Origin: a virus
Taxonomy: Duplodnaviria; Caudoviricetes
Direction: 5' to 3' (one strand)
Virus record (IMG/VR): IMGVR_UViG_3300013121_000013
Span: 1-64,000 of that record
DNA length: 64,000 nt
The position numbers were made by a program, and so were the translations under genes. Positions 7,788-13,181 of the stretch are shown here, in pieces. Under the pieces are notes generated by a model that ran no database searches, was not told the DNA's origin, and saw nothing but the letters and a program-made list of their open reading frames with translations. How positions within the stretch are numbered: position 1 is the stretch's first letter; each line of letters begins with the position of its first letter.

Positions 7788-7996
7788 ATAGTCAGCGATA
7801 GCTGAGGTGTCGGCTGGTTAGGACTTGTAGGGCGTGGCAGGATGCCCGCCCTACTAACTTGGAAAATCTGCTATCCTAGCTAGGCAGCAGATCGGCGGTT
7901 AGAGGAGTACACCCGTTAGCATCCTCTTATTAAAGCCATAATTTAATTTCTTGGCTGATTGGGCTCTAGGTGGGGAAACTAGAGATCGCTGACTAT
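7788..7996. ncRNA. Putative ~210 nt multibranched structured RNA
   Basis: 12-bp closing stem ATAGTCAGCGAT/ATCGCTGACTAT enclosing at least 4 internal hairpins; GC-rich intergenic region. Confidence 0.55.
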
Positions 7997-8949: not shown

Positions 8950-9018
8950 ATAACTGACTGCAGCATTGGACTACATCACTTGTAAGGCGAATGTCTAATG
9001 CGAACCCTTGTCAGTTAT
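8950..9018 (+). ncRNA. Y-RNA-like element Y1 (minimal)
   Basis: ATAACTGAC/GTCAGTTAT outer stem, GCATTGGAC/GTCTAATGC inner stem, TACATC. Confidence 0.75.
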
Positions 9019-9023
9019 AATGT

Positions 9024-9147
9024 GTGAGGGTAGCTCAATGGGCAGAGCACAAAGAGTTCTCTCTGGATAATTTTCGTTGATGTCGTCAACTGCCATCTTG
9101 AGTACATCATAATCTTTAGGTTGTAGGTTCGAATCCTACCCCTCACA
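9024..9147 (+). ncRNA. tRNA(CAU)-like RNA with a circularly permuted Y module inserted in the anticodon loop
   Basis: GTGAGGG/CCCTCAC acceptor stem, normal D and T arms; insert TTTTCGTTGA-TGTCG-TCAACTGC...GAGTACATC. Confidence 0.75.
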
Positions 9148-9152
9148 CTTTT

Positions 9153-9226
9153 TGCAGAGTGGACTGGAGAGGCGCCAGCGCGGCTTCATACGCCGTACGA
9201 CACGGGTTCGATTCCCGTCTCTGCGA
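9153..9226 (+). tRNA. tRNA-Met(CAU)
   Basis: Cloverleaf; GCGGC-TTCATAC-GCCGT anticodon arm; weak 1:72 pair; no encoded CCA. Confidence 0.8.
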
Positions 9227-9227
9227 C

Positions 9228-9376
9228 TTACCAACTGTTTGATAAGAGTACATCAATTTGAATGGTTCGATTCCATTTTCCCCCTATATCTACTATCGGG
9301 GGAAAAGCCACAAGGCGTGGCACTTACCCTTCTGGGGTAAGAATTTATGGATCTCTTGTCTACTCTTCGTTGGTAA
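9228..9376 (+). ncRNA. Y-RNA-like element Y2, YrlA-type with a permuted tRNA cloverleaf
   Basis: TTACCAAC/GTTGGTAA and GATAAGAG/CTCTTGTC stems; T arm, loop-closed acceptor stem, D arm, anticodon-like arm. Confidence 0.8.
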
Positions 9377-9379
9377 CAT

Positions 9380-9436
9380 GGTAGCTCTCTTAGATTTAAA
9401 TAATCTAAGGAGATGACTTTCGAAGGTCAAGCTACC
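9380..9436 (+). ncRNA. Small three-way-junction RNA
   Basis: GGTAGCT/AGCTACC stem closing two hairpins. Confidence 0.5.
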
Positions 9437-9440
9437 CCTT

Positions 9441-9576
9441 CCTGACTGCTAGAATGGAGTACATCCCTTCGGAGGACGAAGAATCGGTGCAAATCCGATC
9501 CCTGCAACTTCAAAATTTATTGCAGGGTAGTGTAATAGATAGCACGCGAAAAATCTCTATTCATCCCCTTGTCAGG
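9441..9576 (+). ncRNA. Y-RNA-like element Y3, YrlA-type with a permuted tRNA(UCG)
   Basis: CCTGAC/GTCAGG and GAATGGAG/CTCTATTC stems; anticodon loop CTTCGGA, T arm, CCCTGCA/TGCAGGG acceptor, D arm. Confidence 0.8.
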
Positions 9577-9582
9577 TTAATT

Positions 9583-9655
9583 GGGCAGTTAGTTCAGCGG
9601 CAAGAGCGCCTCGTTTACACCGAGGATGTCACAGGTTCGAGTCCTGTACTGCCCA
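9583..9655 (+). tRNA. tRNA-Val(UAC)
   Basis: Canonical cloverleaf; CCTCG-TTTACAC-CGAGG. Confidence 0.95.
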
Positions 9656-9657
9656 CT

Positions 9658-9781
9658 TCCGACTGCTGTTTTTAGTACATCGTTCTGCCAGGTGTGGTAA
9701 CTAGCCCACTCCAAGCGACGCCAGCAATGGTGATGGCCCTTAAAGTCGTGTAACTAAGTCTAAAAACAAATCTTTGTCGGA
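9658..9781 (+). ncRNA. Y-RNA-like element Y4 with a ~78 nt non-tRNA insert
   Basis: TCCGAC/GTCGGA and TGTTTTTAG/CTAAAAACA stems, TACATC. Confidence 0.75.
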
Positions 9782-9793
9782 CGTGCGTATTTT

Positions 9794-9877
9794 CGGGGTG
9801 TAGACCGTAACTTGGTAGCGGGCCTGCTTTGGGAGCAGGTGGTATATCCCCTGTAGGTTCAAATCCTATCACCCCGA
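9794..9877 (+). tRNA. tRNA-Pro(UGG) with enlarged variable region
   Basis: CGGGGTG/CACCCCG acceptor; CCTGC-TTTGGGA-GCAGG. Confidence 0.9.
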
Positions 9878-9881
9878 CTTC

Positions 9882-9980
9882 GACAAATAGGCGAGAGTGT
9901 GGCTCGGAGCAGTAATGCGACGGGTGGCTGGGTTTGTAGCATCATAGTGCAATCTCCACAGTATGCACCGTCTGTTTGTC
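9882..9980 (+). ncRNA. Unassigned structured RNA
   Basis: 12-bp closing stem GACAAATAGGCG/CGTCTGTTTGTC with G-U pairs; internal TGTGG/CCACA. Confidence 0.55.
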
Positions 9981-9987
9981 TTATTAT

Positions 9988-10060
9988 GGGACCGTAGCTC
10001 AATGGTCAGAGCAAGGAACTCATAATTCCCAGGTTGTAGGTTCGAATCCTACCGGTCCCA
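9988..10060 (+). tRNA. tRNA-Ile2 or Met (CAU)
   Basis: GGGACCG/CGGTCCC acceptor; CTCATAA loop; Ile2-like body. Confidence 0.9.
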
Positions 10061-10086
10061 CTGTAGGATAACTAACCTATATTTTT

Positions 10087-10173
10087 GGAAGGGCAAGCCA
10101 ATTGGCGGTGGCCGCGCTCTTGAAAAGCGTTAGGGGTTAACGACCCGTGTGGGTTCGACTCCCACCTCTTCCG
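10087..10173 (+). tRNA. tRNA-Ser(UGA)
   Basis: GGAAGGG/CTCTTCC acceptor, CTTGAAA loop, long variable arm, G discriminator. Confidence 0.95.
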
Positions 10174-10180
10174 CTAAACT

Positions 10181-10249
10181 TGGGCTGGGGCAGGGATCTA
10201 GAAATAGAGCTGCTTGCCATTATCATAGGGCTCGTAACCCACCAGTCCG
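10181..10249 (+). ncRNA. Reduced tRNA-like RNA
   Basis: GGGCTGG/CCAGTCC stem, one long arm, T-loop-like GGG-CTCGTAA-CCC. Confidence 0.4.
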
Positions 10250-10252
10250 CTT

Positions 10253-10322
10253 TGCTAACTGTTGGTCCGGATTACATCAATCATTTTTAACCGTTGACAT
10301 CCGGATCGTCACCTCGTTAGCA
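10253..10322 (+). ncRNA. Y-RNA-like element Y5 (minimal)
   Basis: TGCTAAC/GTTAGCA and GGTCCGGAT/ATCCGGATC stems, TACATC. Confidence 0.75.
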
Positions 10323-10333
10323 TAATATTCTTA

Positions 10334-10432
10334 TCGGCGGTGCCTGGAAGGCTTCCTTGTAGAAATCTGCGAATAGTCAGCTGTGCTAGTCTGATTAGAG
10401 GTAAACAGGTTCGATTCCTGTTACATGTCCGA
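10334..10432 (+). ncRNA. Atypical tRNA-like RNA (canonical T arm, aberrant body)
   Basis: AACAGG-TTCGATT-CCTGTT plus three small hairpins; poor acceptor stem. Confidence 0.45.
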
Positions 10433-10434
10433 AT

Positions 10435-10507
10435 GCCGTTCTGGTGTAGCCGGTCTGCACGCCTGCCTGAAGAGCAGGAGGTTCTGGTTCGAACCCAGAG
10501 GACGGTA
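10435..10507 (+). tRNA. tRNA-Phe(GAA)
   Basis: GCCGTTC/GGACGGT acceptor; CCTGC-CTGAAGA-GCAGG. Confidence 0.9.
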
Positions 10508-10890
10508 CTTGTCCACCGGCAGTCCGAAGACTGCTGAGGCCGCCATGTGGGGGTCAGGTAGGGCAGCCATAGAATGTAGGTCCCCTAGCAGGGAGGATGT
10601 CATGAAATCGATGTTTAGCTTTATTATAGCCACGGGTGCGTGTGGCACCCTTTAATAATACCTCAGCTTTTGTGCTTGGCGGCACGAGGATGACTGAGGG
10701 TAGATTTAAATTTGTTAAGTAAGCTTCGTACTTGTCAGAACATTCAGATTCAGTGAGAATACCAATGTAAGATGTAAGATAAGTTTTAGAATTTTAGAAC
10801 CAGGAGATTAGGAGTTGAGCTCCCTAATGTAGCGCCTGGGCAGTGCGCTCAAGTCCGACTGCTTTCTAGTCGGATCTTACTTTTATATAC

Positions 10891-10963
10891 GGGTCTGTGG
10901 CGTAATTGGGAACGCGCTGGATTTGCACTCCGGAGTTGAGGGTTCGATTCCCTCCAGTATCCA
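10891..10963 (+). tRNA. tRNA-Ala(UGC) with a 1-nt acceptor bulge
   Basis: CTGGA-TTTGCAC-TCCGG; G3:U70 is kept if one T of CAGTATCC is bulged. Confidence 0.8.
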
Positions 10964-10967
10964 TTAA

Positions 10968-11027
10968 GCCGACTATCGAACGGTTTACACCATAATGCCA
11001 AAATAAACTGTTCAAATCTTCGTCGGC
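10968..11027 (+). ncRNA. Y-RNA-like element Y6 (minimal)
   Basis: GCCGAC/GTCGGC and GAACGGTTTA/TAAACTGTTC stems, TACACC. Confidence 0.75.
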
Positions 11028-11038
11028 CTAAATCATTT

Positions 11039-11300
11039 TTCAACTGCGGTCAGCGGAGTACACCTGAAAATAGAATTGTTCGGGAGTAGCTTCCCATAAA
11101 GAGCGCTAGCACGTAGGAATGCTCTTTATAAGCAGGCGATCCCTCGTAGCAGCCGGAGGTTAAACGGCGCAAGTAGGAGTTACTTTGAAACCCCCCTGGT
11201 AAAGCTTGGGTTAAATGTGATGCTCGTGGCGACGAGCCTAAACTATAATAAGTGTGGGTGTTCCACGCTTGTTACGCCTCTCCGGACCATTTTCGTTGAA
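11039..11300 (+). ncRNA. Y-RNA-like element Y7 with a ~210 nt structured insert
   Basis: TTCAAC/GTTGAA and GGTC(AG)CGGAG/CTCCGGACC stems, TACACC. Confidence 0.75.
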
Positions 11301-11314
11301 TCTATATTGGTCTA

Positions 11315-11484
11315 GATCGACTGCGGCAGACGGCATTCATCATGCCTAGCTGTTTAAGGAAGGTAATAGGAGAAAGTTCGCGGCCTCCTGGGCACGTCCT
11401 TTAGCCAAAAGAAATCCGCGCATGCCGATAGCCTCTCGGCTGTATGAGGCACCTTAACCCTTGCTGCTGCAACTTTCGTCGATC
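11315..11484 (+). ncRNA. Y-RNA-like element Y8 with a ~120 nt pseudoknotted insert
   Basis: GATCGAC/GTCGATC and GCAG(A)CGGCA/TGCTGCTGC stems, TTCATC. Confidence 0.7.
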
Positions 11485-11487
11485 AAC

Positions 11488-11531
11488 GGAGCCCTGAGGA
11501 TTGTCCTCAGGGCTCCTTGTTTCTTTTTTTT
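11488..11531 (+). terminator. Intrinsic terminator closing the ncRNA operon
   Basis: Perfect 13-bp stem GGAGCCCTGAGGA/TCCTCAGGGCTCC plus a T-rich tract. Confidence 0.85.
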
Positions 11532-11555
11532 CGTTTCTTAATAGGAGAAACTGCA

Positions 11556-13181
11556 ATGTCGAATCCTGATCTCTTTAGCAGCAAATCAGCCACTTCTTCT
11601 TTCGGGCTGAAACATCCTAAGACTGATACTGTGAATAACGCTGGAGGCGTTGCTTATAAATTTACACCGATGCATGCCCTTGCTCAGATGGTTGCGACCG
11701 GAGTGTTTCGTAACACGTATTACACTTCTGGTGCAGAGCAATTGAAGGCATTCATGGAAATTACCGAAGATAAGAAAAGTATCAGTGATGAAAGGCTGGC
11801 TAAGTTAGCGATCTGGGGGCGGCACAACGCTTATATGAAGGACACCCCTGCAGCTTGCGTTATGCGTCTGTTGTCTAGAAACAACATGGACTTGTTCCAT
11901 AAGGTTTTCGATAAAGTAATCGACAACGGTCGAATGCTCCGTAATGCATTTCAGATGTTGAGGTCTGGTGTATTTGGTAGGCGTAGCATGGGATATTCGG
12001 TTCAACGTGCTTTTCAGCGCTGGTTCAATGAGAAGCCAGTACACGTTCTTGTTGCTGGAAGCGTAGGCAACAATCCTAGCCTTAAGGACGTTCTACGTGC
12101 AGCAAGGCCGACTCCTAAAGATCAAGAGAGAGACGCTCTCTTCGGATGGCTTGCTGGCAAGGCCACTGACGCACAGGCACAGAACTTCCCACAAATGTTG
12201 AAAGATATTTTGGAGTTCAGAGCAAACAAAGAACCTAGTGCTCAAATTGAGGTTCTTAACAGGATGGGCGGGTTGCGTTGGGAAATGCTATCTGACGCGA
12301 TTGCTGGTCCAGAGGTGTGGAAGGTAATTATCGGGCATATGGGCCATCAAGCACTTCGTATGAATCTCAATACCCTCGATCGGCATGATGTATTTAAGTC
12401 CAAAGAGACAGTTAATTATGTAGCCAGCAGGCTGTCTGATGTTGAAGAAATCAAGAAGGCAAGGCAGTGGCCTATTCAGTACTTCAGCGCATATATGAAT
12501 GCCGATAATGTCCCTCATAAGATTCGTGAAGCTCTGTGTTCGGCTGCCGAAGTAGCTTGTGGTAATATTCCAGAGCTAGATGGCCCTCTAGTAATTGGCG
12601 TGGATACTTCTGGTTCTATGGGTTCTCCCATTACAGGCGTCCATGCTAAAGGAGGCGCATCGTCCAAAGTGACTTGTAGAGATGCCGCAGCCCTGTTTGC
12701 TGCGGCCCTGATTCGAAAGAATCCGGACTCTCTAGTTGTTCCTTTTGACGATAGGATTCACAAGATCAAGATCGATCCTGGAGATACTATTCTTAGTATT
12801 AGCAAATCCTTGTCTAGACTTGGAGGTGGCGGCACTTGCTGTCATCTACCGCTGCAGCATGCAAATAGTCTTAACAGGCCGTTTGCTGGTTGCGTCATGA
12901 TTTCTGACAATGAAAGCTGGATCGGCACTGGTCGATACGGGTCAACAGGCGTCATGTCGGAGTGGAATATCTTTGTTGATAGGCAGAAAAAGCTTGGTGT
13001 ATATCCAGCGCCAAAGCTTCTAAATATTGACATCGCTCCATATGCATCAACTCAGGCTGTTGATAGGGTTGATATCTTGAATGTTGGAGGATTTTCTGAC
13101 TCTGTCTTTAGCGTTATTTCTGGATGGATGTTCAATAAAGCTGGAACGTTTGTCGATCAGATCGAAGCTGTCCAGCTCTAA
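11556..13181 (+). CDS. rsr: Ro60/Rsr TROVE-domain RNA-binding protein with C-terminal vWA domain
   Basis: N-terminal NNAGGVAY, ALRMNLNTL, MIDAS DTSGSM, GGGT, SDNESW, VGGFSDSVF; AGGAG RBS supports ATG 11556. Confidence 0.92.
   Translation: MSNPDLFSSKSATSSFGLKHPKTDTVNNAGGVAYKFTPMHALAQMVATGVFRNTYYTSGAEQLKAFMEITEDKKSISDERLAKLAIWGRHNAYMKDTPAACVMRLLSRNNMDLFHKVFDKVIDNGRMLRNAFQMLRSGVFGRRSMGYSVQRAFQRWFNEKPVHVLVAGSVGNNPSLKDVLRAARPTPKDQERDALFGWLAGKATDAQAQNFPQMLKDILEFRANKEPSAQIEVLNRMGGLRWEMLSDAIAGPEVWKVIIGHMGHQALRMNLNTLDRHDVFKSKETVNYVASRLSDVEEIKKARQWPIQYFSAYMNADNVPHKIREALCSAAEVACGNIPELDGPLVIGVDTSGSMGSPITGVHAKGGASSKVTCRDAAALFAAALIRKNPDSLVVPFDDRIHKIKIDPGDTILSISKSLSRLGGGGTCCHLPLQHANSLNRPFAGCVMISDNESWIGTGRYGSTGVMSEWNIFVDRQKKLGVYPAPKLLNIDIAPYASTQAVDRVDILNVGGFSDSVFSVISGWMFNKAGTFVDQIEAVQL

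What the first reader, a model, noticed from the sequence alone, without database searches (positions are those of the whole stretch)
11039..11300. Y7: a ~210 nt unknown structured domain mounted on the Y scaffold
Seen hairpins: GGGAG/CTTCC, ATAAAGAGC/GCTCTTTAT, GCCG/CGGC (its loop GAGG can pair with upstream CCTC, a possible pseudoknot), GCTCGT/ACGAGC, ATAAGTGTGG/CCACGCTTGT, and long-range AGGCG/CGCCT. No T loop. It is much larger than the tRNA-like inserts. Inference: candidate new ribozyme or scaffold domain.
Basis: partly seen in the sequence, partly recalled or inferred. Interest (0 to 1): 0.72.

Follow-up and report, generated by a model that had tools for sequence, protein, structure and literature searches.

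The report
Phage Y RNA with large orphan head
This is one of nine small-RNA genes in front of a phage's Ro60 gene: it has the usual Ro60-docking stem, but where known partner RNAs carry a tRNA look-alike it carries a 215-base folded domain that matches nothing known, and I found no relative that could confirm its fold.

Summary
Window 11040-11299 (+) is a complete Y-RNA scaffold: outer stem TCAAC/GTTGA, TGC, inner stem GGTC-AG-CGGAG/CTCCG-GACC, TACACC and the bulge ATTTTC. It encloses about 215 nt. My scaffold scan finds eight such modules, all on the + strand at 8954-11482, none elsewhere in the 64 kb and none in shuffles. The same scaffold lies upstream of Ro60 genes in many Planctomycetota loci.

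GGGAG/CTTCC is displaced by CCUGAA/UUCGGG. Folding is modestly better than shuffles (z about -2.5, + strand only).

The head matches no Rfam family, no tRNA, and none of the 23S, 16S, RNase P or tmRNA of one Pirellulaceae genome. No homologue turned up in 160 Ro60 loci, 29 whole Ro60-bearing phage records, 401 Planctomycetota genomes, the phage collection or exact-word scans. Helix conservation is therefore untested, and nothing supports a ribozyme.

Best reading: a lineage-specific Y RNA whose head recruits an unknown partner to phage Ro60. This scan has noted other large non-tRNA Y-RNA heads on other phage DNA. In passing I confirmed a conserved planctomycete Y-RNA class whose head is a miniature of the 23S H67-H71 junction. 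Y7 is not a member.

The parts
11040..11044 (+). Y scaffold, outer stem 5' strand (TCAAC)
   Evidence: Pairs with GTTGA 11295-99, P 0.98. It has the same place and form as in seven other modules.
11045..11047 (+). TGC internal-loop motif of the scaffold
   Evidence: TGC is the commonest form in the modules listed from Ro60 loci (TGT, TGA and TAT also occur) and is invariant in A3.
11048..11058 (+). Inner (presumed Ro60-docking) stem, 5' strand: GGTC, 2-nt bulge AG, CGGAG
   Evidence: Pairs with GACC 11285-88 and CTCCG 11280-84, P 0.98-0.99. By my reading of the sequence, Y8 shows the same 4 bp + bulge + 5 bp layout.
11059..11064 (+). TACACC, the conserved TACAYC tail of the scaffold
   Evidence: TACAYC, TACATG or TCCATG follows the inner stem in all modules.
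11063..11084 (+).
11089..11133 (+). Head hairpin H2: GCUU/AAGC plus the 10-bp AUAAAGAGCG/UGCUCUUUAU
   Evidence: P 0.97-0.98; z -2.34.
11134..11279 (+). Head core: helix AGGCG/CGCCU closing a junction with four hairpins (11142-77, 11179-11221, 11222-37, 11246-74). Its 3' strand abuts the inner Y stem with no unpaired base between them.
   Evidence: z -2.37 on +, -0.65 on -. Covariance model R2 of this core finds only itself.
11280..11288 (+). Inner stem, 3' strand (CTCCG GACC)
   Evidence: 11278-99 is 86% identical to the 3' strand of the permuted module at 9059-80 (family D10).
11289..11294 (+). Pyrimidine-rich bulge ATTTTC of the scaffold
   Evidence: A 5-8 nt pyrimidine-rich bulge sits at this place in all modules.
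11295..11299 (+). Outer stem, 3' strand (GTTGA)
11488..11516 (+). Intrinsic terminator (13-bp stem followed by a T run) ending the tRNA / Y-RNA array
11556..13181 (+). Phage Ro60 (Rsr) gene, TROVE + Ro60 vWA domains
   Evidence: Pfam PF05731 and PF25045. 50-56% identical to Planctomycetota Ro60 proteins.

Best explanation
Y7 is a gene for a Y RNA, a non-coding partner RNA of the phage's own Ro60 protein. It is transcribed on the + strand within the tRNA / Y-RNA array that ends at the terminator at 11488-11516. Its paired 5' and 3' ends form the conserved docking stem shared by the other modules in this phage and by Y RNAs beside Ro60 genes in Planctomycetota (shown by sequence comparison). Known bacterial Y RNAs of the YrlA type carry a tRNA-like head on this stem. 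Y7 instead carries a lineage-specific head of about 215 nt. The predicted head has two side hairpins, followed by a helix that stacks on the docking stem and closes a junction of four further hairpins (predicted only). On the tether-and-gate model of Y RNAs (Chen et al. 2013 and 2014, as cited in PMC4201824), the head most likely recruits a protein or RNA partner to Ro60 that differs from the partner of the tRNA-like modules. This would give the phage one more way to aim its Ro60 / RNA-repair gene set (inferred).
For: The scaffold is complete and specific: eight modules, + strand only, at 8954-11482, none in shuffles. The same scaffold lies upstream of Ro60 in 73 of 160 fetched loci. Y7 sits 257 nt upstream of a TROVE+vWA Ro60 gene, followed by a 2H-phosphoesterase/Nudix fusion and a LigD-phosphoesterase/ligase. 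A strong terminator follows Y8. Folding is strand-specific and better than shuffles. Five helices have P>=0.96. There is no ORF above 40 aa. GC is 44-52% across the RNA array against 30-38% just upstream. There is no match to any Rfam family. Chen et al. 2014 expect further, undetected Y RNAs.
Against: No homologue of the head was found, so no helix has covariation support. The fold z-scores are modest (-1.85 for the head alone). Ro60 binding is inferred from likeness of the stem only. Y7's stem departs from the consensus: TACACC for TACATC, a 2-nt bulge in the inner stem, and T for C at the first base of the CTTC bulge end. Rfam's YrlA model does not score any module of this phage above its cut-off.
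Confidence: 0.55

Rival explanations
1. The head is a rearranged imitation of a cellular RNA (ribosomal RNA or another), acting as a decoy or as a docking site for a protein that binds that RNA. This would match the planctomycete Y-RNA class with a 23S H67-H71 head and the rRNA-like heads that this scan noted in other phages.
For: The principle is real in the likely host clade. 33 of 80 Planctomycetota Ro60 loci carry a Y RNA whose head keeps 14-16-nt exact 23S words and the H69/H71/H67 layout. By eye, Y7 has GCCGGAGGTTAA, GCGCAAG, GAAACCCC..GGTAAA and AACTATAA in the order of 23S H68-H69.
Against: Every quantitative test was negative while the positive control passed. Local alignment to a Pirellulaceae 23S gave z 0.15. 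The longest exact word shared with LSU, SSU, RNase P or tmRNA is 11 nt (p 0.115), against 16 nt (p 0.000) for the control. Shared 9- and 10-mers gave p about 0.3 against 0.000. An nhmmer profile of the 23S junction finds 32 control RNAs and nothing in the Y array. Covariance model R3 gives 0.8 bits on Y7, although R3 is weak for permuted copies. The H68-like pairing has P about 3e-4 and costs 6.8 kcal/mol.
Confidence: 0.15
2. The 215 nt are a neutral or selfish insertion, such as an expansion, the remnant of a mobile element, or a degenerate intron. It landed in the apical loop of what was a small (10-20 nt loop) Y RNA and has no function of its own.
For: The head is an orphan. It has no relative in any collection searched and no paralogue in the window. 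Small-loop modules are the commonest class. Large length-variable insertions do occur inside other Y heads, for example L127, L156, L100 and L125 in the capped hairpin.
Against: The fold is strand-specific and better than chance in both sub-domains. The closing helix abuts the docking stem exactly. There is no Rfam intron or mobile-element RNA match, no ORF and no terminal repeats. Spacers of 12-17 nt within a processed RNA array argue against tolerated junk.
Confidence: 0.15
3. The head is a catalytic RNA: a self-cleaving ribozyme or a self-splicing intron that is removed to leave a small Y RNA.
For: Its size is in the range of the smallest group I introns (my recollection, not tested here). 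It has a multi-helix junction and a possible pseudoknot. It lies in a tRNA-rich array, and bacterial and phage tRNA genes are known hosts of group I introns (general knowledge, not tested).
Against: No match to any ribozyme or intron family at E<=10 with permissive filters on the 281-nt stretch. Removing 11065-11279 would leave only the 6-nt TACACC between the two strands of the inner stem (my reading), whereas the other modules have at least 10 nt after TACAYC.
Confidence: 0.05
4. There is no RNA gene here. The scaffold halves and helices are chance, or left-overs of duplications in the array.
For: No expression data and no homologue.
Against: The scaffold scan gives 0 hits in shuffles and 0 outside the array. 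There are 14 base pairs plus three conserved unpaired motifs in the right order and spacing.
Confidence: 0.03

Closest known systems
YrlA (Y RNA-like A; Rfam RF02553; Chen et al. 2014, PMC4201824; Wang et al. 2018, bioRxiv 10.1101/312249)
   Same: Encoded next to a Ro60 (rsr) gene on the same strand. The 5' and 3' ends pair into a bulged stem taken to dock Ro60. A separate head sits on top of that stem. Found in phages as well as bacteria.
   Different: The YrlA head is a tRNA mimic with T and D arms, in an Rfam model of 114 positions. The Y7 head is 215 nt with no T loop and no tRNA score. No module of this phage reaches RF02553's 69-bit cut-off: the best is 18 bits, outside the window.
Bacterial Y RNAs without a tRNA-like head
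   Same: Ro60-associated RNAs whose head is not tRNA-like.
   Different: I did not compare Y7 with them. The minimal modules in this array (8954-9014, 10255-10320, 10969-11026) have only 14-20 nt on the stem. Y7 has a large multi-helix head.
I did not find it in the papers searched. Similar copies were noted earlier in this scan on other DNA.
   Same: The same docking scaffold beside Ro60. A non-tRNA head of over 120 nt, organised as a multi-helix junction closed by a helix next to the docking stem.
   Different: That head keeps 14-16-nt exact 23S words and has covariation support (19 of 46 pairs). Y7 shares neither sequence nor rRNA words, and it has no relatives.
Large non-tRNA Y-RNA heads noted by this scan in other phages (e1-5746955, e1-5325896, e1-5738817, e1-5785313)
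   Same: A phage Ro60 gene with a Y-type stem carrying a folded head of 150-320 nt with no catalogued family.
   Different: Those notes report conservation within their own lineages. Y7 shares no short words with any noted stretch, and its core model finds nothing in 80 viral Ro60 loci. I did not check those notes myself.

Membership tests
Y RNA (Ro60-partner RNA, functional class) | Encoded beside a Ro60/TROVE gene | tested here: met
   Y7 ends 257 nt upstream of the TROVE+vWA gene at 11556-13181, on the same strand.
Y RNA (Ro60-partner RNA, functional class) | 5' and 3' ends pair into a conserved bulged stem shared with other Ro60-linked RNAs | tested here: met
   The scaffold is found by the same scan in seven other modules here and in 73 of 160 Ro60 loci. 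Stem P is 0.98-0.99.
Y RNA (Ro60-partner RNA, functional class) | Binds Ro60 | not testable with these tools
   Needs co-immunoprecipitation or a gel-shift assay.
Y RNA (Ro60-partner RNA, functional class) | Accumulates as a discrete small RNA | not testable with these tools
YrlA (Rfam RF02553) | Scores at or above the family's gathering score (69 bits) | tested here: not met
   No RF02553 match on Y7 at E<=10. The best match in the whole phage is 18.1 bits, elsewhere.
YrlA (Rfam RF02553) | tRNA-like head (T arm, D arm, acceptor-like stem) | tested here: not met
   No tRNA call by ARAGORN or RF00005 in 10963-11555. No GTTCRA T loop in the sequence.
Planctomycete 23S-junction Y class (A3) | Head matches the class profile (ACGGTCCTAAGGTAGCGA ... 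GTGAATGGCG ... ACGGACGGCCGT) | tested here: not met
   nhmmer with the A3 head profile finds 35 loci and nothing in the window. The motif is absent from the window.
Mimic of the 23S rRNA H67-H71 junction | Sequence or structure match to a model of that 23S region | tested here: not met
   nhmmer with the A4 profile finds no hit in the array, while it does find 32 control RNAs. CM R3 gives 0.8 bits on Y7. R3 has low power for permuted copies.
Known ribozymes, introns, riboswitches and large ornate RNAs (all Rfam 15 families) | Covariance-model match | tested here: not met
   Only one chance-level snoRNA match, on the opposite strand (16 bits, E 1.4).

The most novel reading that the evidence does not exclude
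Phage and host Ro60 use the Y stem as a universal handle onto which quite different RNA 'cargoes' are mounted: tRNA mimics, a 23S-junction mimic, and orphan domains such as Y7. On this reading the Y7 head is a new functional RNA domain, either an aptamer or decoy for a host defence or RNA-processing protein, or a catalytic RNA. It would aim the phage's Ro60 / RNA-repair set at a target of its own.
Probability: 0.2. Interest if true: 0.75.

Novelty: new variant of a known kind. Interest (0 to 1): 0.52.

Why it matters
In the papers I searched, bacterial Y RNAs are described either as tRNA mimics or as RNAs that eluded bioinformatic discovery, and what their heads recruit is largely unknown. This phage places nine Y modules with different heads in front of its Ro60 and RNA-repair genes. 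The arrangement suggests that Ro60 can be re-aimed simply by changing the head. Y7 is the largest head in the array and has no known relative. Identifying its partner by pull-down would show what a phage Ro60 particle acts on during infection. It would also show whether non-tRNA heads are functional cargo or tolerated insertions. On present evidence it remains a well-placed but unvalidated orphan.

Tried and rejected
**Homologue searches that found nothing**
- blastn against GenBank phages.
- nhmmer and blastn against 160 Ro60 loci.
- Covariance model R2 of the core against those loci and against 29 whole viral records.
- BLAST against 401 Planctomycetota genomes. This gave only short chance hits, piling on the GC-rich palindrome GCTCGTGGCGACGAGC.
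- Exact 20-mers in IMG/VR and in JGI metagenomes.
- Close relatives of the phage sought through its Ro60 and its 2H/Nudix protein.
- Look-alikes among this scan's own notes.

The Logan contigs that encode a >=90% identical Ro60 (P0121) could therefore not be fetched.
- One genome search failed.

**A faulty model**
- Model R1 was built with a mis-registered structure string. This was found, and R1 was never used.

**The 23S H68-H69 likeness**
- I saw this likeness by eye and rejected it after five tests.
- A by-eye likeness of H2 to the uL11-binding region was not pursued beyond the word tests.

**Other readings rejected**
- Paralogy of the head with tRNAs, other Y heads or the 7788-7996 element: no match better than E = 2.
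- A coding reading: no ORF above 40 aa.

**False leads from my scaffold scanner**
- Candidates L148:3708-3980 and L156:2882-3234 proved to be two adjacent modules read as one.

Full report
**Context.** The window is part of a 155.6-kb IMG/VR virus record. Between 8950 and 11520 lies a dense RNA array on the + strand. It holds seven to eight tRNA genes interleaved with modules that share one scaffold. The array ends at a 13-bp intrinsic terminator at 11488-11516. The next genes are:
- a Ro60 gene (11556-13181; TROVE and Ro60-vWA domains);
- a 2H-phosphoesterase/Nudix fusion;
- further on, a LigD-3'-phosphoesterase/ATP-ligase fusion.

The phage Ro60 is 50-56% identical to Ro60 proteins of Planctomycetota. 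That points to a host in or near that phylum (inference).

**The scaffold.** I wrote a scanner for this pattern: a 5-bp outer stem, T(G/A)N, an 8-12-nt inner strand, TACAYC-like, an insert, the inner complement, a 5-8-nt pyrimidine-rich bulge, and the outer complement.
- It finds exactly eight modules in the 64-kb window, all on + at 8954-11482. It finds none on the minus strand and none in ten shuffles.
- The ninth, circularly permuted copy inside the tRNA at 9024-9147 is visible in the sequence.
- The same scaffold turns up upstream of Ro60 in 73 of 160 loci fetched through Ro60.
- Y7 is 11040-11299: TCAAC, TGC, GGTC-AG-CGGAG, TACACC, 215 nt, CTCCG-GACC, ATTTTC, GTTGA.
- Its 3' strand is 86% identical to that of the permuted module, and its 5' strand is 89% identical to a stretch at 7895-7913.

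The 'Y scaffold' part of the finding is therefore solid.

**The head.**
- In the predicted ensemble five of them have mean pair probabilities of 0.96-1.00.
- GGGAG/CTTCC has a 3-nt loop and loses to CCUGAA/UUCGGG (P 0.70-1.00). Forcing it costs 6.4 kcal/mol.
- The predicted architecture starts just past TACACC with two side hairpins (11063-84 and 11089-11133).
- The helix AGGCG/CGCCU follows. Its 3' strand runs straight into the inner docking stem.
- That helix closes a junction of four hairpins (11142-77, 11179-11221, 11222-37, 11246-74).
- Folding energy beats dinucleotide shuffles moderately, and only on the sense strand. The whole element gives z -2.48 against -1.34. The 5' part gives -2.65 against -0.99, and the core -2.37 against -0.65.
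- There is no ORF over 40 aa.
- The proposed CCUC/GAGG pseudoknot is sterically possible but untested.

**What it is not.**
- Rfam 15 gives no match at gathering thresholds, or at E<=10 with permissive filters on the 281-nt stretch. The one exception is a chance-level snoRNA hit on the other strand.
- There is no tRNA or T loop.
- Rfam's YrlA model does not reach its cut-off anywhere in the phage.

**Search for relatives.** Nothing was found in any of these:
- GenBank phages;
- 160 Ro60 loci, by nhmmer and blastn;
- the same loci and 29 complete Ro60-bearing virus records, with a covariance model of the 146-nt core (R2);
- 401 Planctomycetota genomes;
- exact-word scans of IMG/VR and JGI metagenomes;
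- this scan's own index.

The phage itself has no close relative in IMG/VR by two of its proteins.

**A lead that came up on the way.** Sorting modules in host-clade loci by insert length gave three classes: 10-20 nt, 80-100 nt (tRNA-like) and 120-150 nt. The third class has a TACATG or TCCATG tail and a head beginning ACGGTCCTAAGGTAGCGA.
- It is present in 33 of 80 Planctomycetota loci, always upstream of Ro60 on its strand. It is absent from all 80 viral loci and from the window.
- A 22-sequence alignment (A3) gives 46 consensus pairs, 19 of them with compensatory changes.
- I compared it with the Rfam structure line for a Pirellulaceae 23S. The head is a miniature of the domain IV junction, read in this order:
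  - the H69 3' strand;
  - C-UAA-G and GUAGC;
  - a shortened H71;
  - GUGAAUGGCG (the junction strand plus the H67 3' strand);
  - H67 capped by a hairpin;
  - a stub for H68;
  - ACGGAC-GGCCGU (the H69 5' strand).
- The Ro60 stem stands where the H69 loop would be.
- One variant (L108:150-321) even keeps GUAACUAUGA, the H69 loop.
- I found no paper describing rRNA-like Y RNAs. This scan had noted such copies on other DNA.

**Is Y7 such a mimic?** By eye its core shows short words in the order of 23S H68-H69. Every quantitative test was negative, and the planctomycete class served as a passing control:
- Local alignment to 23S gave z 0.15.
- The longest exact word against LSU, SSU, RNase P or tmRNA is 11 nt (p 0.115), against 16 nt (p 0.000) for the control.
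- Shared 9- and 10-mers gave p about 0.3, against 0.000 for the control.
- An nhmmer profile of 30 Planctomycetota 23S junctions (A4) recovers 32 control RNAs and nothing in the Y array.
- The covariance model of that junction (R3) gives 0.8 bits on Y7. Its power for permuted copies is low, because only L108 was recovered.
- The H68-like pairing has probability about 3e-4.

I therefore do not file Y7 as an rRNA mimic. A mimic too diverged or too rearranged for these tests is not excluded.

**Reading.**
- Shown: a complete, specific Y-type docking scaffold next to a phage Ro60 gene, enclosing 215 nt that fold moderately well on the sense strand and match nothing known.
- Inferred: it is transcribed and processed from the array, it docks on Ro60, and its head recruits a partner different from that of the tRNA-like modules.
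- Unknown: the partner, the true fold, and whether the head is functional at all.

The nearest described relatives are YrlA-type Y RNAs. Y7 meets the class features that can be tested in silico, but not the YrlA family's defining tRNA-like head or its Rfam score. Earlier notes of this scan describe other large non-tRNA heads on phage Y RNAs in other lineages. Y7 is thus one more, unrelated, instance of a pattern seen before on other DNA. I score it as a new variant of a known kind, of moderate interest, held down by the lack of any conservation or expression evidence.

Noticed in passing
L082:3282-3451, L086:2656-2825, L094:3271-3440, L099:1431-1599, L109:3119-3287, L117:3506-3676, L131:3218-3387, L134:3497-3669, L142:3156-3329, L147:554-731, L152:815-986 and others (alignment A3): A conserved Y-RNA class upstream of Ro60 in 33 of 80 Planctomycetota loci. 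Its head of about 125 nt is a miniature, circularly rearranged copy of the 23S rRNA H67-H68-H69-H71 junction, with the Ro60 stem in place of the H69 loop. It shares 16-nt exact 23S words, and 19 of 46 pairs show compensatory changes. I found no paper on it. Similar copies were noted earlier in this scan.
   Followed up: yes
L108:150-321: A variant of the 23S-like class that also keeps the H69 loop sequence (GTAACTATGA) right after TACATC. It is the only member that the un-permuted 23S junction model R3 recovers (17 bits).
   Followed up: partly
L127:4287-4567, L156:2976-3234, L100:3252-3439, L125:2213-2407: Members of the 23S-like class with extra insertions of about 20-110 nt. In L127, L156 and L100 these lie in the hairpin that caps the H67-like helix, and in L125 in the H68-stub hairpin (my reading of the sequences). 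These two hairpins appear to tolerate expansion.
   Followed up: no
window 11317-11482 (Y8) compared with 11040-11299 (Y7): By my reading of the sequence, Y7 and Y8 alone share an inner docking stem built as 4 bp + a 1-2-nt purine bulge + 5 bp. The other modules have an unbroken 9-10-bp stem. The Y8 head (120 nt) folds no better than shuffles (z +0.59) and does not match the 23S-like class.
   Followed up: partly
window 7895-7913: GCGGTTAGAGGAGTACACC, inside the 7788-7996 intergenic element, is 89% identical to the Y7 5' strand (11046-64). It appears to close a small hairpin (AGAGGA/TCCTCT) with a 15-nt loop, like a minimal Y module that lacks the usual ACTGC and outer stem.
   Followed up: partly
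L005:699-2840: A 162-kb phage (Ro60 38% identical) carries at least eight Y modules mixed with tRNA-like elements and small ORFs upstream of its Ro60. One of them (about 846-1024) has a much extended inner stem and a TACATG tail. None resembles the Y7 head.
   Followed up: partly
L006:3437-3461: A 5' half-scaffold (TCAAC TGC CGGTCAGGAG TACATC), very like the Y7 5' strand, has no 3' partner that I could find. It is followed directly by an open frame of about 88 codons.
   Followed up: no
G000:C1:121330-121447 and 142878-144649 (outside the window): Weak YrlA-model matches (the best 18 bits) and T-arm-like matches suggest a second tRNA or Y-like RNA cluster elsewhere in the same phage genome.
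   Followed up: no
window 10853-10875: A terminator-like hairpin (GTCCGACTGC...) just before the tRNA-Ala gene contains the scaffold word CCGACTGC. The 380 nt between tRNA-Phe and tRNA-Ala (10509-10890) have no assigned RNA.
   Followed up: no
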